Shown piece by piece: positions 5,901-17,900 of a stretch of DNA of 64,000 nt. The translations under genes and the position numbers were made by a program. The first letter of the stretch is position 1, and every line of letters starts with the position of its first letter. The notes under the pieces are model-generated. The model made no database searches and was not told the origin of the DNA. It saw nothing but the letters and a program-made list of their open reading frames with translations. Origin of the DNA: the human T2T-CHM13v2.0 reference genome, Homo sapiens; the NCBI RefSeq assembly GCF_009914755.1, contig NC_060936.1, one strand, 5' to 3'.

Positions 5901-8900
5901 GACCCATTGCATGCTGAAGGCCCCACACCAGAGCTCCGTGCCAGGGAAGCCTGTTCTGGGGGTGTGTGCTGGGAAAGAAGAGGGCAAGACAGCACTATCC
6001 AGTGTCAGCAAGCTTCTGCTCCAACTTGATGCAGAAGCATATTTGTCAATACACAGAGAGGACATGTAGCATCTCCTGCAGGCAAAGCTCCTGTGATCCT
6101 TTCTCTTCTCTCTCTGGGCTGTGGACAAATGCTGCCTGGCAGGTGGGCTCCCAGCACATGCTGGCGTACAGCCGGTCTTTGCTGCCAGTGGAGAGCACAC
6201 CTGCACGCCTGAGCAGACTTTCGAGCAGGGCGCAAAGTTGGGTGGCCTTCACATCCTTTTGTGGAAGTGAAGGTCTAATGAGGACAAATTTCATACCTCT
6301 CCCACTCCACGAGGAGGGTCAAAAGTAGTTGTGGCAAAGGCAAGATTCTCCCTGGAATGCTTCAGGGAGCATTCACTCCCTGCCCACTCCAGCAACACCC
6401 ACACAAGCTGCGTGTCACCCCCAGCATCCTCTGTGTATTAGGCCATCCTTGCACTGCTGTAAAGAAATACCTGAGACTGGGTAATTTATAAGAAAACAGG
6501 TTTAATTGGCCCACAGTTCAGCAGGCTGTACAGGAAGCATGGCACTAGCATTCTGCTTCTGGGGAGGCCTCAGGAAGCTTCCAGTCAATCATGGTGGAAG
6601 GCAAAGGGGAGGCAGGTACGTCACATGGACAGACAGGGAGCAAGAGAGAAGGGGGAGGGACCACACACTTACTTAAACAAGCAGATCTCATGAGTACTCA
6701 CTCACCAAGGGGATGGTACCAAACCATTTATGAGAAATCCACCCCATGATGCAATCACCTTCCATCAGGCCCCACCTCCAATTCTGGGGATTACAATTCA
6801 ACATGAGATTTGGGCGAGGACACAGAGCCAAACCATATCACTCTGCCACGGTGTTCTGCGGTCCCCTAAGCACCGCCTGCCATCATCACCAGCTTTGCTT
6901 CTCTTCGCCTGCAGCGCCTGGTCTCCATGAACATGCCTCTGAACAGCGACGGGACAGTCATGTTCAATGCCACCCTGTTTGCCCTGGTCAGGACGGCCCT
7001 GAGGATCAAAACAGAAGGTAAGGTCGCCCGTGGGCACTGGGAGAGACACTCAGAAGGTCTAGCAGACAATCAGAGAGGAGCTCGGCAGCCTGCAAAGTGC
7101 TCAAGGGAACTTCCTGCCCCAGACAGCATCCGAGCTGGGATACGGGGGTAACGTGCGCTCCAGGACATCGCAGGGCCCCAGCCTGCTCATGACTTCTTTG
7201 CTCCTGAATGGTCTCCCTGCCTCTAGCTCAGGGGTTTCCAATCTTTTGGCTTCTCTGGGCCACATTGGAAGAATTGTCTTGGGCCACACATAAAATACAC
7301 TAACGATAGCTGATGAACTGAAAAAAAAAAATTGCAAAATACTCAATGTTTTAAGAAAGTTTACGAATATGTGTTGGGCCACATTCAAAGCCGTCCTGGG
7401 CCGCATGTGGCCCATGGGCTGCAGGTTAGACAAGCCTGCTCTAGCTTATTCATTTTGAACTCTAGCTTTCCATGAAACTCTGGGACTCATTCTGGGTGGT
7501 ATCTTGAAGTCAGAGGGTATAGCTCACAAAACAGAAGGAGACGGGTGTTACCTGAAGCAGGACCAACCCCTGTCTAAAAGAACTTACACTGGCTACAGGT
7601 GGGTGTCTCAAATGCTCAACTCATTAAATTAATAGGACTGTGCTGGGAAGACGTGTGGGAAAGGGGACACAGTGACAAGTGGTGGCCGTGGTGGAGGTCA
7701 TCGCACACATTGTGCGGGCTGAGCCTGGCTTAAGGCTCTTAGCCAGCGGACAGGTGAGGATTCAGACCTCACCTGTGCCACCTAGTCAGACCGGGCTCCC
7801 TCAGGGCTGCGTCCACCTGGAGGGGCCCTTCTAGTTTTCACAAGGCACCCTAAGGGCTAGCAGCAGCCTGAGTGAGATAATCTGCTTGCTTTATGATGGA
7901 TAAGAGTTTGCGAACCACTATGGGAAAGGCTGTATTAAACACACCTAACAAGATACCATTTCTCTCCAAGAGTGTCCAGCCTTGGAGTGTCTAGTGTTTC
8001 TTAGAGCGTGGTCAAAAGACCACCGCTGCAGAATCAGCTTTGGGTACCTGTTTAAGCTACTGAGTCCCAGGCACCCACACAGACCTGCTGATGCCAAATC
8101 CCTGAGCATGGGGCCCAGGAATCTGCATCTTGAACCAACTACAGAGATGATTCAAACCCACTGGTGTAGTAATTACAGAAAACACAGATGAGACAAGCAG
8201 TATGCTTCCTTCCCCTTCCTACACTTCCAGCTTAAAGCTCAGGCTGTCCGTCAGTGTGTTCCTCGGGGCAACAGAAGGAGCCCCGGGCAGGTGGGAGGCT
8301 CGAATCCGAGTCCCTGCTCTCTCACTAATGACATGAGTATGAGCCATTTACTCTCTCTCTACTTCAGTTGCTCCATTGGTAGACTAGAGAAAGGTGATGA
8401 CATCTGGGAATTTAATTCATTGAATAACCCAGACATGGGCCTTCTCTCCGTTAGATCCTTCAAAAACAATAACAGAAACATTTCAAATGAAGTGAAACAA
8501 GAACCAGTCCACCAAGACACAAGTCAAAATAATTAGCTGATTTTTAAAAAATAAAAATAGGGGCCAGGCGTGCTGGCTCGTGCCTGTAATTCCAGCACTT
8601 TGAGAGGCCCAGTCGGGCAGATCCCGAGGTCAGGAGATTGAGACCATCCTGGCCAACATGGTGAAACCTCGTCTCTACTAAAAATACAAAAATTAGCCGG
8701 GCGTGGTGGCACGTGCCTGTAATCCCAGCTACTCAGGAGGCTGAGGCAGGAGAATCGCTTGAACCTGGGAGGCAGAGGTTGCAGTGAGCCGAGATCACCC
8801 CACTCTAGCCTGGGCGACAGAGTGAGGCTCCATCTGAAAAAATAAAATAAAATAATAAAAATAGGACAAGTTCTGCTACTAAATTAAAAAAAAAAAAAAG

Positions 8901-14900: not shown

Positions 14901-17900
14901 TGACCATAAGCCTTTTTATGGTTTTTTTTCTCTCTTTTTAAGCCATGTGAATGTATTACCTCTCCAAAAATATTAAAGTTTTAAAAAGTTTTGGATGCTG
15001 AAAAAAAAAATGAATGAAGTTCAACTGAATTCCCCTGCTCCCCTCTTACCCCCTCTCCCCTCTCCATACGTCTCAGATGATGAGGTCACCGTTGGCAAGT
15101 TCTACGCCACGTTCCTGATCCAGGAGTACTTCCGGAAGTTCAAGAAGCGCAAAGAGCAGGGCCTTGTGGGCAAGCCCTCCCAGAGGAACGCGCTGTCTCT
15201 GCAGGTGAGGGCCTGGGGGCGGGCCCACACTCCAGGAAGGTCCTGGTCATTGCCTCTGACCTCCAGTCAGGGTCCCGGTCCCTCCCCAGCAGGCTGGAGG
15301 CCAGGTCCCTGCAGAGGGAACCTTTCAGAGAGCTCCAGACCTTTCCAAAGATGGCTGTGAGAAGGGGGTGATGTGCCCTTCCCTACCTGCCACCCACCGA
15401 CTGCCCTCCATGGTTCTGCCTGCTGTCATAGCCCCCAGATCTCTCAAATACTTCACTGAGGCTCCCGTGACAGCCCCTGACCCCTGGTGCCCCGTCCTAA
15501 TGAGCCTTCATCCCTCCTGGATGGGCGAGTGGATTGTTCCATCAGAGGGCAGCCCAGCCCCCAGTTCACACACACACAAACCTTCCGGAGGGTCGACTGG
15601 CTGGGTGGAGGATGCCAGGGCCCTGGAGGGACAGGTCTTGGCCCGAGGCTGTGGCTGGCTGGGGAGCTTGGAGGAAAGGGAGCGTGGTCCTCACCATCCT
15701 CCCCTTGGATTCCAGGCTGGCTTGCGCACACTGCATGACATCGGGCCTGAGATCCGACGGGCCATCTCTGGAGATCTCACCGCTGAGGAGGAGCTGGACA
15801 AGGCCATGAAGGAGGCTGTGTCCGCTGCTTCTGAAGATGACATCTTCAGGGTGGGTGGTGCCATGGCGCACTCTCGACCCCTATAAAGTTCAGTTTGGAG
15901 CAAGAGGTTGGGCTGGGGTTTTGCGGGGAACGTCCAGGGGAAGGAGCTGCACCAGAGGAAAGGGCTACTTCCAGGCTCTTCCTGATGAGCTGTCTCCTCA
16001 CCCCTTTGCCTTTTCCAAGCCTGACTCCATCCCAAGGCAGGGCTCCCTGGAAACAGCAGCTCTCAGTGTCACTGGCTCTCAGAGAAGCGGGAAGGAACCG
16101 CCTTCCTAAGGGAAATGTTTCCTAGGAGAAACTTCTGCATTAGAAGTTGCAGAGTGGTCACCCCTGGGGCACATCTAATCTGCAGGCTTGTTTTGTTTGT
16201 TAATATTTGAAAATCAAGACTTCTGGCATTCTTTGGAAAAGTCAGGAGACCTGGTAATATTAAGCTTGCATTCCCACAGGGCAGCAGAGGGCCGGAGCCT
16301 AGAGGCGGTGGCCCTTTGAGATGGAGCATAGCGTGTGTTCTCCAGGTCTCCAAGACCCCTCCAGAACTCCCCTTTCCCTCTCCTTTCCTGGAGACTGAAG
16401 CTGCCCAGCAGTTGCAATAGTGAAAATTAAAACGGCTGTACCAGAATAAGGGGCGTTTATCACTCATTTGTGTTGCCTGCCTCACCACGCTGGTGTTTGG
16501 TTACAAATCCTTCTATAGCAAGGGAGAAGCTGCCAGCCATAATTGTGCAGGACCCTGCTCACACCGCTCTCTCCCGGCCGCGGGCCCAGTTCCCAGGCTG
16601 TGGAACACACAGGGGGCAAGCTGAGCCCATCCTGCCCCTGCTCCGTCTCTTCCTCATCCTTATTCTTGTCACTGGGAGACATTCGTCACTGAGTGGCCTC
16701 AGGGACATGGCATGGTGGTGACACAACCCGACAAGACACCAGAAACCAAAGCCTCAGTCACCAAGGCCCAGGGATGCTCTGATGTCAAGGGTTGGAACAA
16801 CCGTGCAAATAGCTACTTGCCCACTTCCCCAGGACAAGGAAAAGAATACTGGGGAAAAACATTGGCTCCTGGTTTTAAATCTCTCTGAGTCCCCGAGGGG
16901 AAAAAGACCATCATGCAGGAAATTCTTCATTTTCAAAACCGTTTGGCCAACCAGCTTTTAGCTCTGTGAGCACACTGGGTTTCCATTTTTTAAATCTGGT
17001 TAGAATCTTCTGGTCGCTCTCCCAGCCCCCGCCCTCACGGTGTGCTGGCTGCTCTTAGGGACCACCATCCTAGACGTGCCCTGGAAACTCACTCCCAGCC
17101 TTCAGGGGCTTCACTGGAAACCTCCAGGGCAGCTCGTACCAGCGGCAGCCCCTTGCCCAATCCCATCCCCACTGGTGGGTGGGTTCTCCCAGCTGCTGCA
17201 GAGGGGAGTCCAGAGCCTTGAGACTCCGGGTCCCTCCCTCTCTGGAGCAGCCAGGCATGAAGAAGGTCCTCAGGTGCTCCTGGCTCCCAGCAGGGCTGTG
17301 CCTACCCGAAAGAAGGCAGCCCGCCTTCCCAGGCCCTGCACTTCCCTGACCTGGCTGTGGAGGCTGCTCTCTGGGAGGAGTGGGTGCTAAGGGGCTTCTC
17401 CACCCACCCCTCCTTCTTGCCTACAGAGGGCCGGTGGCCTGTTCGGCAACCACGTCAGCTACTACCAAAGCGACGGCCGGAGCGCCTTCCCCCAGACCTT
17501 CACCACTCAGCGCCCGCTGCACATCAACAAGGCGGGCAGCAGCCAGGGCGACACTGAGTCGCCATCCCACGAGAAGCTGGTGGACTCCACCTTCACCCCG
17601 AGCAGCTACTCGTCCACCGGCTCCAATGCCAACATCAACAACGCCAACAACACCGCCCTGGGTCGCCTCCCTCGCCCCGCCGGCTACCCCAGCACAGTCA
17701 GCACTGTGGAGGGCCACGGGCCCCCCTTGTCCCCTGCCATCCGGGTGCAGGAGGTGGCGTGGAAGCTCAGCTCCAACAGGTAAGTGGGAGGCTGGCCACC
17801 CCAGGCGGCACACAGGGCCCACGTGCTGCAACCCTCAGGAGACAGTGGAGGAGACGGAGGCCTCGGCCAGCCACTTGTCCCTCAAGCTTCCAGGAGGTTG

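What the first reader, a model, noticed from the sequence alone, without database searches (positions are those of the whole stretch)
6991..15715. The Cav1.2 'alpha1C,86' splice variant looks like a spliced antisense transcript read backwards
Recalled from the literature: alpha1C,86 (Soldatov lab) replaces 80 aa of the pre-IQ/IQ region with 81 unrelated aa ([10 protein letters not shown]...[14 protein letters not shown]...HHPPLGF) and loses Ca-dependent inactivation. Seen in sequence: both halves are here (ORFs 9992..10252 and 15368..15886), but neither junction can be written as a + strand GT...AG intron. Placing the joins at 6998/10112 and 10229/15582 makes both introns CT...AC, i.e. canonical on the minus strand: donor AAG|gtttgt (15581) to acceptor cttccttttatgttccaag| (10230), and donor GAG|gtaggt (10111) to acceptor ccttctgttttgatcctcag| (6999). 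Relative to the normal mRNA, 19+102+128=249 nt are lost and 118+134=252 nt gained, which is the +1 aa (80 to 81) and reads [10 protein letters not shown]...KLLS-SGGSTG...PLGF-QAGLR. Inference: this channel 'isoform' derives from an antisense lncRNA that joins the CACNA1C-AS1 and AS2 regions and overlaps two sense exons, and it may never be made as a sense mRNA.
Basis: partly seen in the sequence, partly recalled or inferred. Interest (0 to 1): 0.93.

Follow-up and report, generated by a model that had tools for sequence, protein, structure and literature searches.

The report
Cav1.2 'isoform' built from antisense RNA

Summary
Joining 6998|10112 and 10229|15582 gives an open frame that swaps 80 normal residues (IKTEG…NALSL) for 81 unrelated ones. 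That fits what accessible papers say of alpha1C,86: an 80-residue stretch of exons 40-42, IKTEG at 1572-76, and exon 40 shortened by 19 bp.

Each join has four equivalent placements. None gives a sense-strand GT-AG, GC-AG or AT-AC intron, and exactly one gives GT-AG on the minus strand. No usable sense-strand site lies nearby.

Intron 6999-10111 is the annotated intron of the antisense lncRNA CACNA1C-AS2. Intron 10230-15581 is not annotated. Its donor lies in the last exon of CACNA1C-AS1, and its acceptor is 26 nt upstream of the AS2 5' end. Its sites are weak to moderate. None of 56 RefSeq CACNA1C mRNAs uses either segment.

The best reading is a cDNA of a spliced antisense RNA read backwards.

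Not shown here:
- The published cDNA or peptide sequence. The primary papers are not held and the peptide is recalled.
- Stranded read evidence.
- How the original clone was obtained.

This is a new case of a known kind of artefact. Interest is moderate.

The parts
6482..6998 (-). Last exon of the antisense lncRNA (CACNA1C-AS2 exon 2). Its upstream 84 nt (6915-6998) are the reverse complement of the first 84 nt of sense exon 40.
   Evidence: RefSeq NR_046579.1 exons. Minus-strand acceptor at 6999 scores 12.61, 72nd percentile of real acceptors.
6501..6506 (-). ATTAAA poly(A) signal variant, ending 19 nt before the annotated AS2 3' end at 6482. It lies in a masked repeat (6448-6614).
   Evidence: Minus-strand sequence; repeat table. 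That ATTAAA is a poly(A) signal variant is general knowledge, not from a call.
6999..10111 (-). Antisense intron 2: GT..AG on the minus strand, CT..AC on the plus strand. It equals junction 1 of the 'isoform'.
   Evidence: Annotated AS2 intron. It is the only canonical placement of 4. Donor GAGGTAGGT scores 8.82, 57th percentile.
10112..10229 (-). Antisense internal exon of 118 nt, read backwards as 'exon 40B' (LRETELSS...KLL+S). Only 10112-10203 is annotated, as AS2 exon 1.
   Evidence: Single copy in the genome.
10123..10249 (.). Tandem duplication: 62-nt unit, 2.0 copies, 93% match. It spans most of the 118-nt exon and its acceptor, so a second acceptor-like site sits at 10168. The two copies are read in different frames in the 'isoform' ORF.
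   Evidence: TRF; frame offsets 2 and 1; acceptor at 10168 scores 8.17, rank 6 of 111.
10230..15581 (-). Inferred antisense intron 1 (GT..AG on minus), equal to junction 2 of the 'isoform'. Not annotated.
   Evidence: Only canonical placement of 4. Donor AAGGTTTGT scores 4.75 (10th percentile); acceptor scores 8.52 (29th percentile).
15582..15880 (-). Antisense exon part lying inside the AS1 last exon (13984-15880). It covers the 134-nt 'exon 43 extension' (15582-15715), all of sense exon 43 (15716-15850) and 30 nt of the next sense intron.
   Evidence: RefSeq NR_045725.1; translation. The 134-nt piece is single copy.
14002..14007 (-). AATAAA, ending 18 nt before the annotated AS1 3' end (13984). 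The joined transcript would have to splice past it.
   Evidence: Minus-strand sequence.
6915..7017 (+). Sense exon 40. The 'isoform' keeps 6915-6998 and loses the last 19 nt.
   Evidence: Annotation. Sense donor at 7018 scores 10.67.
12524..12625 (+). Sense exon 41 (102 nt; alternative start at 12467). Absent from the 'isoform'.
15077..15204 (+). Sense exon 42 (128 nt). It encodes the IQ region and is absent from the 'isoform'.
   Evidence: Its 42 aa match Cav1.2 IQ-region chains in the PDB, for example 2be6_D, 6dad_C and 2f3y_B.
15716..15850 (+). Sense exon 43, shared by the normal mRNA and by the backwards-read antisense exon.

Best explanation
The 252 nt that distinguish the Cav1.2 'alpha1C,86' variant are two pieces of a spliced minus-strand RNA. 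That RNA runs from the CACNA1C-AS1 exon (15880 down to a donor at 15581), to an internal exon (10229 down to 10112), to the CACNA1C-AS2 last exon (6998 down to a poly(A) site at 6482).

The RNA is complementary to 84 nt of sense exon 40 and to all of sense exon 43. A double-stranded cDNA made from it would therefore be picked up by CACNA1C probes or primers. Read in the sense direction, it looks like exon 40 minus 19 nt, then a new 118-nt exon, then exon 43 with 134 extra nt. By chance that reading is stop-free and changes the length by +3 nt, so it passed as an in-frame isoform.

Placed into a full-length channel, it replaces the pre-IQ/IQ stretch with unrelated sequence. That alone explains the reported loss of Ca-dependent inactivation.

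Shown here: the geometry, the strand of the splice signals, the identity of junction 1 with an annotated antisense intron, and the absence of sense-strand alternatives.

Inferred: that the AS1-AS2 join is made in cells, that the original clone came from that RNA, and that no sense mRNA carries these joins.
For: - Junction 1 equals the intron of NR_046579.1. A minus-strand ATTAAA lies 19 nt before that record's 3' end.
- For each junction, only 1 of 4 equivalent placements is canonical, and it is on the minus strand. None is GT-AG, GC-AG or AT-AC on the plus strand.
- Random-junction null, n = 400,000: 0 reach the junction 1 scores and 11 reach the junction 2 scores.
- Sense-strand sites near the joins: no GT in 10215-10250, and six AGs all at or below the 1st percentile of real acceptors.
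- 0 of 56 RefSeq CACNA1C mRNAs use either segment.
- The AS2 5' end (10203) lies 26 nt inside an exon bounded by a pyrimidine tract and AG at 10230. This is what a 5'-truncated clone of a longer transcript would look like.
- The 118-nt exon is largely a 62-nt tandem duplication whose two copies are read in different frames.
- Codon usage of the two segments (-0.13 and +0.06 bits per codon) sits within stop-free intronic controls (mean -0.08, sd 0.13, n = 176). The 15 real CACNA1C exons average +0.20. This evidence is weak.
- The reconstruction gives 80 to 81 residues starting at IKTEG. That agrees with passages in PMC4890872, PMC10094977 and PMC4097961.
- CT-AC introns are generally read as canonical introns of antisense transcripts (PMC7072748 passages).
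- Both segments are single copy in the genome, so no other locus supplies them.
Against: - The junction 2 donor is weak: score 4.75, 10th percentile of real donors, rank 13 of 86 minus-strand GTs in the AS1 exon. Its acceptor ranks 5 of 111. The sites would not be predicted from sequence alone.
- No annotated transcript joins AS1 to AS2. AS1 has its own AATAAA and 3' end at 13984.
- The published peptide and cDNA were not seen. Four 9- or 10-residue motifs of it occur in no searchable paper, and a search for short protein fragments found nothing.
- A secondary source quotes +125 bp and +132 bp instead of 118 and 134 (PMC4097961). Those numbers would not preserve the frame, but they differ from mine.
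- The author's 2012 review calls the variant 'naturally occurring'. His 2013 review says exon 41/42 variability was found in hippocampus, heart and vascular smooth muscle.
- A purely antisense cDNA cannot contain sense exons 39 or 44. If the original clone did, an additional chimera step is needed.
- The codon-usage test is not decisive: the 134-nt piece is at the 86th percentile of intronic controls.
Confidence: 0.8

Rival explanations
1. A genuine sense-strand CACNA1C mRNA isoform made by non-canonical (CU..AC) splicing at both junctions.
For: The reading frame is open and in register (+3 nt). The originating laboratory describes the variant as naturally occurring (PMC4890872 passage).
Against: Neither junction can be written GT-AG, GC-AG or AT-AC on the plus strand. 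There is no sense-strand donor and no usable acceptor nearby. Junction 1 coincides to the base with an annotated minus-strand intron. 0 of 56 RefSeq mRNAs carry it. The duplicated unit is read in two frames.
Confidence: 0.03
2. An in-vitro artefact unrelated to antisense RNA: reverse-transcriptase template switching or PCR recombination on sense pre-mRNA at short direct repeats.
For: Each junction has 3 nt of microhomology, giving 4 equivalent placements, as template switches often do. That template switches often show this is my recall.
Against: Microhomology of this size is what consensus splice sites produce anyway. Both junctions carry full minus-strand splice signals with pyrimidine tracts. 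The chance of that is 0 and 11 in 400,000 random junctions. Junction 1 is found independently in NR_046579.1.
Confidence: 0.05
3. The recalled peptide is not the published alpha1C,86 sequence, so the window tells us about the antisense RNAs but nothing about that variant.
For: No call retrieved the published sequence. One secondary source gives different insert sizes, 125 and 132 bp.
Against: Three published descriptors fit the reconstruction exactly: exon 40 minus 19 bp, an 80-residue replaced stretch of exons 40-42, and IKTEG at 1572-76 with LLDQV at 1600-04. The quoted 125/132 sizes would shift the frame, so they cannot be right for a functional channel.
Confidence: 0.08

Closest known systems
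CACNA1C-AS2 (RefSeq NR_046579.1), antisense lncRNA
   Same: Its single intron (6999-10111) is junction 1 of the variant. Its last exon supplies the 'exon 40 minus 19 nt' part. Its first exon lies inside the 118-nt segment.
   Different: The record starts at 10203, 26 nt short of the acceptor at 10230, and has no link to AS1. The variant implies a longer upstream structure.
CACNA1C-AS1 (RefSeq NR_045725.1), antisense lncRNA
   Same: Its last exon (13984-15880) contains the 134-nt extension and the complement of sense exon 43.
   Different: As annotated, it runs on to its own AATAAA and ends at 13984. The variant requires an internal donor at 15581 that is not annotated and is weak.
CT-AC 'non-canonical introns' that are canonical introns of antisense transcripts
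   Same: Same logic: an intron that reads CT..AC on the annotated strand, with the flanking consensus also complementary, is a GT-AG intron of the opposite strand (PMC7072748 passages).
   Different: That work concerns genome annotations, mostly fungal. Here the mis-stranded sequence was expressed as a protein and used for years as a functional channel isoform.
Curated alternative splicing at CACNA1C exons 40-43 (exon 41 with the 57-nt 5' extension, 'exon 41A')
   Same: Same region of the gene and the same literature.
   Different: The exon 41 extension uses a sense-strand AG acceptor (score 8.49) and is present in 10 of 56 RefSeq mRNAs. The alpha1C,86 segments have no sense-strand sites and are in 0 of 56.

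Membership tests
Spliced cis-natural antisense lncRNA | Introns canonical (GT-AG) on the strand opposite the host gene | tested here: met
   Both introns are GT..AG on the minus strand only. PWM scores are 8.82/12.61 for junction 1 and 4.75/8.52 for junction 2.
Spliced cis-natural antisense lncRNA | Poly(A) signal and 3' end in the antisense orientation | tested here: met
   Minus-strand ATTAAA at 6506-6501, 19 nt before the annotated end at 6482.
Spliced cis-natural antisense lncRNA | Exonic overlap with sense exons | tested here: met
   6915-6998 overlaps exon 40. 15716-15850 overlaps exon 43 (and the annotation given).
Spliced cis-natural antisense lncRNA | Independent transcript evidence for each junction | tested here: inconclusive
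   Junction 1 is in RefSeq NR_046579.1. Junction 2 is in no RefSeq model of the window. Reads were not available.
Bona fide sense-strand splice isoform of CACNA1C | Spliceosomal intron ends (GT-AG, GC-AG or AT-AC) on the sense strand | tested here: not met
   0 of 4 placements at either junction. No nearby usable sites.
Bona fide sense-strand splice isoform of CACNA1C | Present in curated transcript sets | tested here: not met
   0 of 56 RefSeq mRNAs (24 NM, 32 XM) contain 10112-10229 or an exon starting at 15582.
Bona fide sense-strand splice isoform of CACNA1C | Coding-like sequence composition | tested here: inconclusive
   Codon log-odds are -0.13 and +0.06, against a real-exon mean of +0.20 and an intronic control mean of -0.08 (sd 0.13). 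The tandem copies are read in two frames.
Bona fide sense-strand splice isoform of CACNA1C | Endogenous sense mRNA or peptide detected | not testable with these tools
   No reads or proteomics were available. The one RT-PCR study seen expected a 643-bp band, but the variant would give 618 bp against 615 bp normal. The long-read study seen accepted only canonical sites.
RT/PCR template-switch artefact | Junctions at direct repeats with no splice signals on either strand | tested here: not met
   There is 3 nt of microhomology, but full minus-strand splice signals at both junctions.

The most novel reading that the evidence does not exclude
CACNA1C-AS1 and CACNA1C-AS2 are two fragments of one antisense transcription unit of six or more exons. 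It would start inside the last coding exon of CACNA1C and end in intron 39. Its spliced RNA is perfectly complementary to parts of sense exon 40, exon 43 and the last coding exon, that is, to the sequence flanking the calmodulin-binding pre-IQ/IQ exons. It might act on the sense transcript there, by masking, editing or an effect on splice choice. The 1990s 'isoform' would then be the first, unrecognised sighting of this RNA in human hippocampus.
Probability: 0.2. Interest if true: 0.65.

Novelty: new member of a known kind. Interest (0 to 1): 0.55.

Why it matters
By the author's own review, alpha1C,86 was the tool that narrowed the Ca-sensing site for Ca-dependent inactivation to the 80 residues of exons 40-42 (PMC4890872 passage). 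It is still described there as a natural isoform.

If its distinctive sequence comes from an antisense lncRNA, the mapping conclusions stand, because it behaves as a substitution mutant. Three things would change:
- Statements that cells make a Cav1.2 channel lacking Ca-dependent inactivation would lose their basis.
- Any isoform entry in a protein database built on it should be flagged.
- CACNA1C-AS1 and CACNA1C-AS2 may need merging into one gene model.

The check is cheap: count two junctions by strand in public stranded RNA-seq.

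Tried and rejected
**Primary papers.** I tried to read them and none is held: JBC 1997 by DOI, PNAS 1998 by PubMed id and PMC id, PNAS 1992, PNAS 2006 and Biophys J 2004. 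Genomics 1994, JBC 1998 and Tang 2004 had no PMC id in the reference lists seen, and I did not try them.

**Paper searches** (10 of 10 used):
- Exon names 40A, 40B, 41A and 43A gave only secondary mentions.
- Peptide motifs gave 0 papers.
- '1572-1651' and '81 non-identical' gave only irrelevant hits.
- Accession-like terms gave nothing relevant.
- 'exons 40-43' gave nothing new.
- For prior art, the CACNA1C-AS1/AS2 search listed 25 of 33 papers. By title and abstract start they are mostly expression or prognostic studies, and none is on isoform origin.
- 'Soldatov' + 'antisense transcript' + 'CT-AC' + 'CACNA1C antisense' listed 15 of 116 papers. None concerns this variant. 'CACNA1C antisense' had 0 occurrences in the 15 listed, and there the name Soldatov belongs to a different author.

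So I found no printed statement of the antisense explanation in these searches of the held library. Subscription papers are not covered.

**Sequence searches.**
- A protein word search with the 89-aa translation of 15584-15850 had 1 candidate and none significant. 147 sample-only candidates were left out by the tool. Full-length isoforms are outside its length window, so this blank means little.
- A PDB search with the 44-aa variant piece gave 0 hits at E <= 1.
- An Rfam scan of 6000-16500 gave 0 matches.

**Splice-site model limits.** It is a simple position-weight model, not MaxEntScan. The window's own sense sites were in the training set; the antisense sites were not.

**Readings rejected.**
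- A sense-strand acceptor at 10116 (CCTACCTCAG|) scores 0.37, about the 1st percentile, and gives a different frame.
- U12-type AT-AC introns: no placement fits.
- Origin from another locus: both segments are single copy.

**Supplements.** The junction and novel-exon lists of the long-read study (PMC6906184) could bear on this. However, its methods accept only canonical sense-strand sites.

Full report
**What is in the sequence**

The window holds CACNA1C exons 40 (6915-7017), 41 (12524-12625, or from 12467), 42 (15077-15204) and 43 (15716-15850) on the plus strand. Two annotated minus-strand lncRNAs overlap them: CACNA1C-AS2 (exons 6482-6998 and 10112-10203) and CACNA1C-AS1 (exons 13984-15880, 29577-29647, 30244-30416 and 30506-30594).

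Translating 10112-10228 gives LRETELSS...KLL. Translating 15584-15850 gives SGGSTGW...PLGFQAGLR... and runs straight into exon 43.

I joined 6915-6998, 10112-10229 and 15582-15850 by coordinates and compared the result with the normal exon 40-43 series:
- 468 nt become 471 nt.
- 30 residues are shared before the swap and 46 after it.
- 80 normal-specific residues (IKTEG...NALSL) are replaced by 81 variant-specific residues (ETELSS...PLGF).

**Link to the published variant**

I could not retrieve the primary papers or any text holding the peptide.
- The 2012 review by the variant's author says the Ca-sensing site was narrowed to an 80-residue stretch encoded by exons 40-42, and that a naturally occurring splice variation there, alpha1C,86, abolishes Ca-dependent inactivation (PMC4890872).
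- A 2023 review places IKTEG at 1572-76 and LLDQV at 1600-04 of alpha1C,77 (PMC10094977). In my reconstruction the replaced stretch starts with IKTEG and has LLDQV at its positions 29-33, which is consistent.
- A 2014 paper, citing the 1994 gene-structure paper, lists 'exon 40A (exon 40 with a 19 bp deletion)', an added exon 40B and an extended exon 43 (PMC4097961). The 19-bp deletion is what the join at 6998 produces.

That 2014 paper gives 125 and 132 bp for the two additions, where I find 118 and 134. Its numbers would shift the frame, so I take them as misquoted, but I record the disagreement.

The author's 2013 review says exon 41/42 variability was found later in hippocampus, heart and vascular smooth muscle and was not observed in fibroblasts (PMC4392978, section 3 read whole).

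**Strand of the splice signals**

Because of 3 nt of microhomology, each join can be placed in four equivalent ways.
- Junction 1: the plus-strand intron ends are CC..TA, CT..AC, TG..CC and GA..CT.
- Junction 2: they are CT..AC, TT..CC, TG..CT and GG..TT.

None is GT-AG, GC-AG or AT-AC on the plus strand. In each case exactly one placement is GT..AG on the minus strand.

I built position-weight models from 321 GT donors and 343 AG acceptors of NM_ transcripts. The training sequence was twenty 10-kb chr12 stretches plus this window.

| Minus-strand site | Sequence | Score | Percentile of real sites | Percentile of decoys |
|---|---|---|---|---|
| Donor at 10111 | GAGGTAGGT | 8.82 | 57th | 99.2th |
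| Acceptor at 6999 | | 12.61 | 72nd | 99.7th |
| Donor at 15581 | AAGGTTTGT | 4.75 | 10th | 91st |
| Acceptor at 10230 | | 8.52 | 29th | 97.5th |

Decoys were 7,246 GT and 9,327 AG dinucleotides in the window.

Of 400,000 random junctions drawn in the window, 0.57% can be written GT..AG on the plus strand and 0.80% CT..AC. With both scores at least equal to those observed, 0 match junction 1 and 11 match junction 2.

On the sense strand there is no GT at all in 10215-10250. The only GTs in 6985-7022 are at 6987 and the normal donor at 7018. The six AGs near the two 3' joins score at or below the 1st percentile of real acceptors. A small error in the recalled sequence would therefore not rescue sense-strand splicing.

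**Independent support**

Junction 1 is, to the base, the intron of NR_046579.1. That record ends at 6482, 19 nt after a minus-strand ATTAAA, so its orientation does not depend on the splice sites alone.

Its 5' end at 10203 lies 26 nt inside a stretch that is preceded on the minus strand by ...TCTTCCTTTTATGTTCCAAG|. That is what a 5'-truncated clone of an internal exon would look like.

The junction 2 donor lies inside the last exon of AS1. The piece upstream of it (15582-15880) includes the complement of sense exon 43.

None of the 56 RefSeq CACNA1C mRNAs in this annotation contains either segment. They show only two exon patterns between 4664 and 17779: 46 with exon 41 from 12524 and 10 from 12467.

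Both segments are single copy in the T2T genome, with the tool's caveat about closed regions. Neither is in a masked repeat.

**Is the sense reading coding-like?**

The 118-nt exon is mostly a tandem duplication: 62-nt unit, 2.0 copies, 93% match, at 10123-10249. Since 62 is not a multiple of 3, the two copies are read in different frames of the 'isoform' ORF (offsets 2 and 1). That is expected of non-coding DNA that happens to be open.

I trained a codon log-odds table on 12,529 codons from 330 coding exons outside this gene.

| Sequence set | Codon log-odds (bits per codon) |
|---|---|
| 15 CACNA1C coding exons of the window | mean +0.20, minimum -0.24 |
| Variant 118-nt segment | -0.13 |
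| Variant 134-nt segment | +0.06 |
| 176 stop-free intronic windows (controls) | mean -0.08, sd 0.13 |

The two variant segments fall at the 34th and 86th percentiles of the controls. The direction is as expected, but the test is weak.

The replaced exon 42 encodes the stretch that matches the Cav1.2 IQ-region peptides in the PDB (2be6, 2f3y, 6dad, 3oxq, 3g43 and others). That those entries are calmodulin complexes is my recall. The 44-aa variant piece matches nothing at E <= 1.

**Most likely mechanism**

A minus-strand RNA is spliced 15880..15582 | 10229..10112 | 6998..6482. Its cDNA shares 84 nt with exon 40 and 135 nt with exon 43. It would therefore hybridise to CACNA1C probes, or amplify with primers placed in those exons from unstranded cDNA.

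Read in the sense direction it is open and in frame. That is selection bias: out-of-frame or stop-containing versions would not have been taken for a functional isoform.

Swapping it into a full-length clone removes the pre-IQ/IQ region, which is enough to explain the loss of Ca-dependent inactivation.

One spliceosomal RNA cannot carry both sense-type and antisense-type introns. A full-length 'alpha1C,86' must therefore have been assembled from parts or be a chimera. I could not read how it was built.

The general rule that CT-AC introns are canonical introns of antisense transcripts is stated in PMC7072748 (passages).

**Evidence that does not decide**

- The RT-PCR survey in myometrium saw only the 40/41/42/43 form. 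Its primers map to 3618-3639 (exon 38) and 15810-15829 (exon 43). They predict 615 bp for the normal form, as the paper states, but 618 bp for the variant, not the 643 bp the paper expected. That negative result is therefore uninformative.
- The long-read study of CACNA1C in brain accepted only junctions with canonical sites (PMC6906184 passages).

**Weak points**

- The junction 2 donor is poor: rank 13 of 86 minus-strand GTs in 13990-15878.
- The acceptor is rank 5 of 111 in 10100-11500.
- AS1 has its own AATAAA (14007-14002) and end at 13984.
- No annotated model joins AS1 to AS2.

For comparison, the annotated AS1 acceptor at 15881 is weaker still (2.63, 4th percentile). Weak sites are therefore used in this antisense unit.

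**Verdict**

It is a new instance of a known kind of error (an antisense cDNA read as a sense isoform), attached to a historically influential construct. I found no statement of it in print in the searches I could run, which cover only the held library. Interest is moderate (0.55).

Noticed in passing
window 10123-10249: A 62-nt tandem duplication (2.0 copies, 93% match) duplicates the minus-strand acceptor. A twin site at 10168 scores 8.17, against 8.52 at 10230. Using it would give a 56-nt exon instead of 118 nt.
   Followed up: partly
window 15565-15581: A short CA run on the plus strand (TG run on the minus strand) directly follows the proposed minus-strand donor (AAG|GTTTGTGTGTGTG). Length variation of this run could affect that weak donor.
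   Followed up: no
window 30244-30594: The first two annotated AS1 exons (30506-30594 and 30244-30416) overlap the coding part of the last CACNA1C exon (30337-30636). The antisense unit is therefore complementary to coding sequence at both ends of the C-terminal tail (annotation).
   Followed up: no
window 15881: The annotated AS1 acceptor at 15881 is very weak in my model (2.63, 4th percentile of real acceptors), weaker than the unannotated sites proposed for junction 2.
   Followed up: no
window 6448-6614: The AS2 3' end and its ATTAAA lie inside a masked repeat, so the poly(A) site of the antisense RNA appears to be supplied by a repeat element. I did not identify the repeat family.
   Followed up: no
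PMC4097961, primers at window 3618-3639 and 15810-15829: The paper's expected size for the 40A/40B/43-extended product (643 bp) does not follow from the genome. With these primers the variant would be 618 bp against 615 bp normal, which are not separable on a gel.
   Followed up: yes
window 15020-15521: An annotated H3K4me1 hESC enhancer element overlaps sense exon 42 and the AS1 last exon, just downstream (in the minus sense) of the proposed donor at 15581.
   Followed up: no
window 10047-10241: A second plus-strand ORF (64 aa) reads the same duplicated unit in the other frame, and the peptide ...[12 protein letters not shown]... appears in both ORFs. This shows that openness here reflects composition and not coding.
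   Followed up: partly
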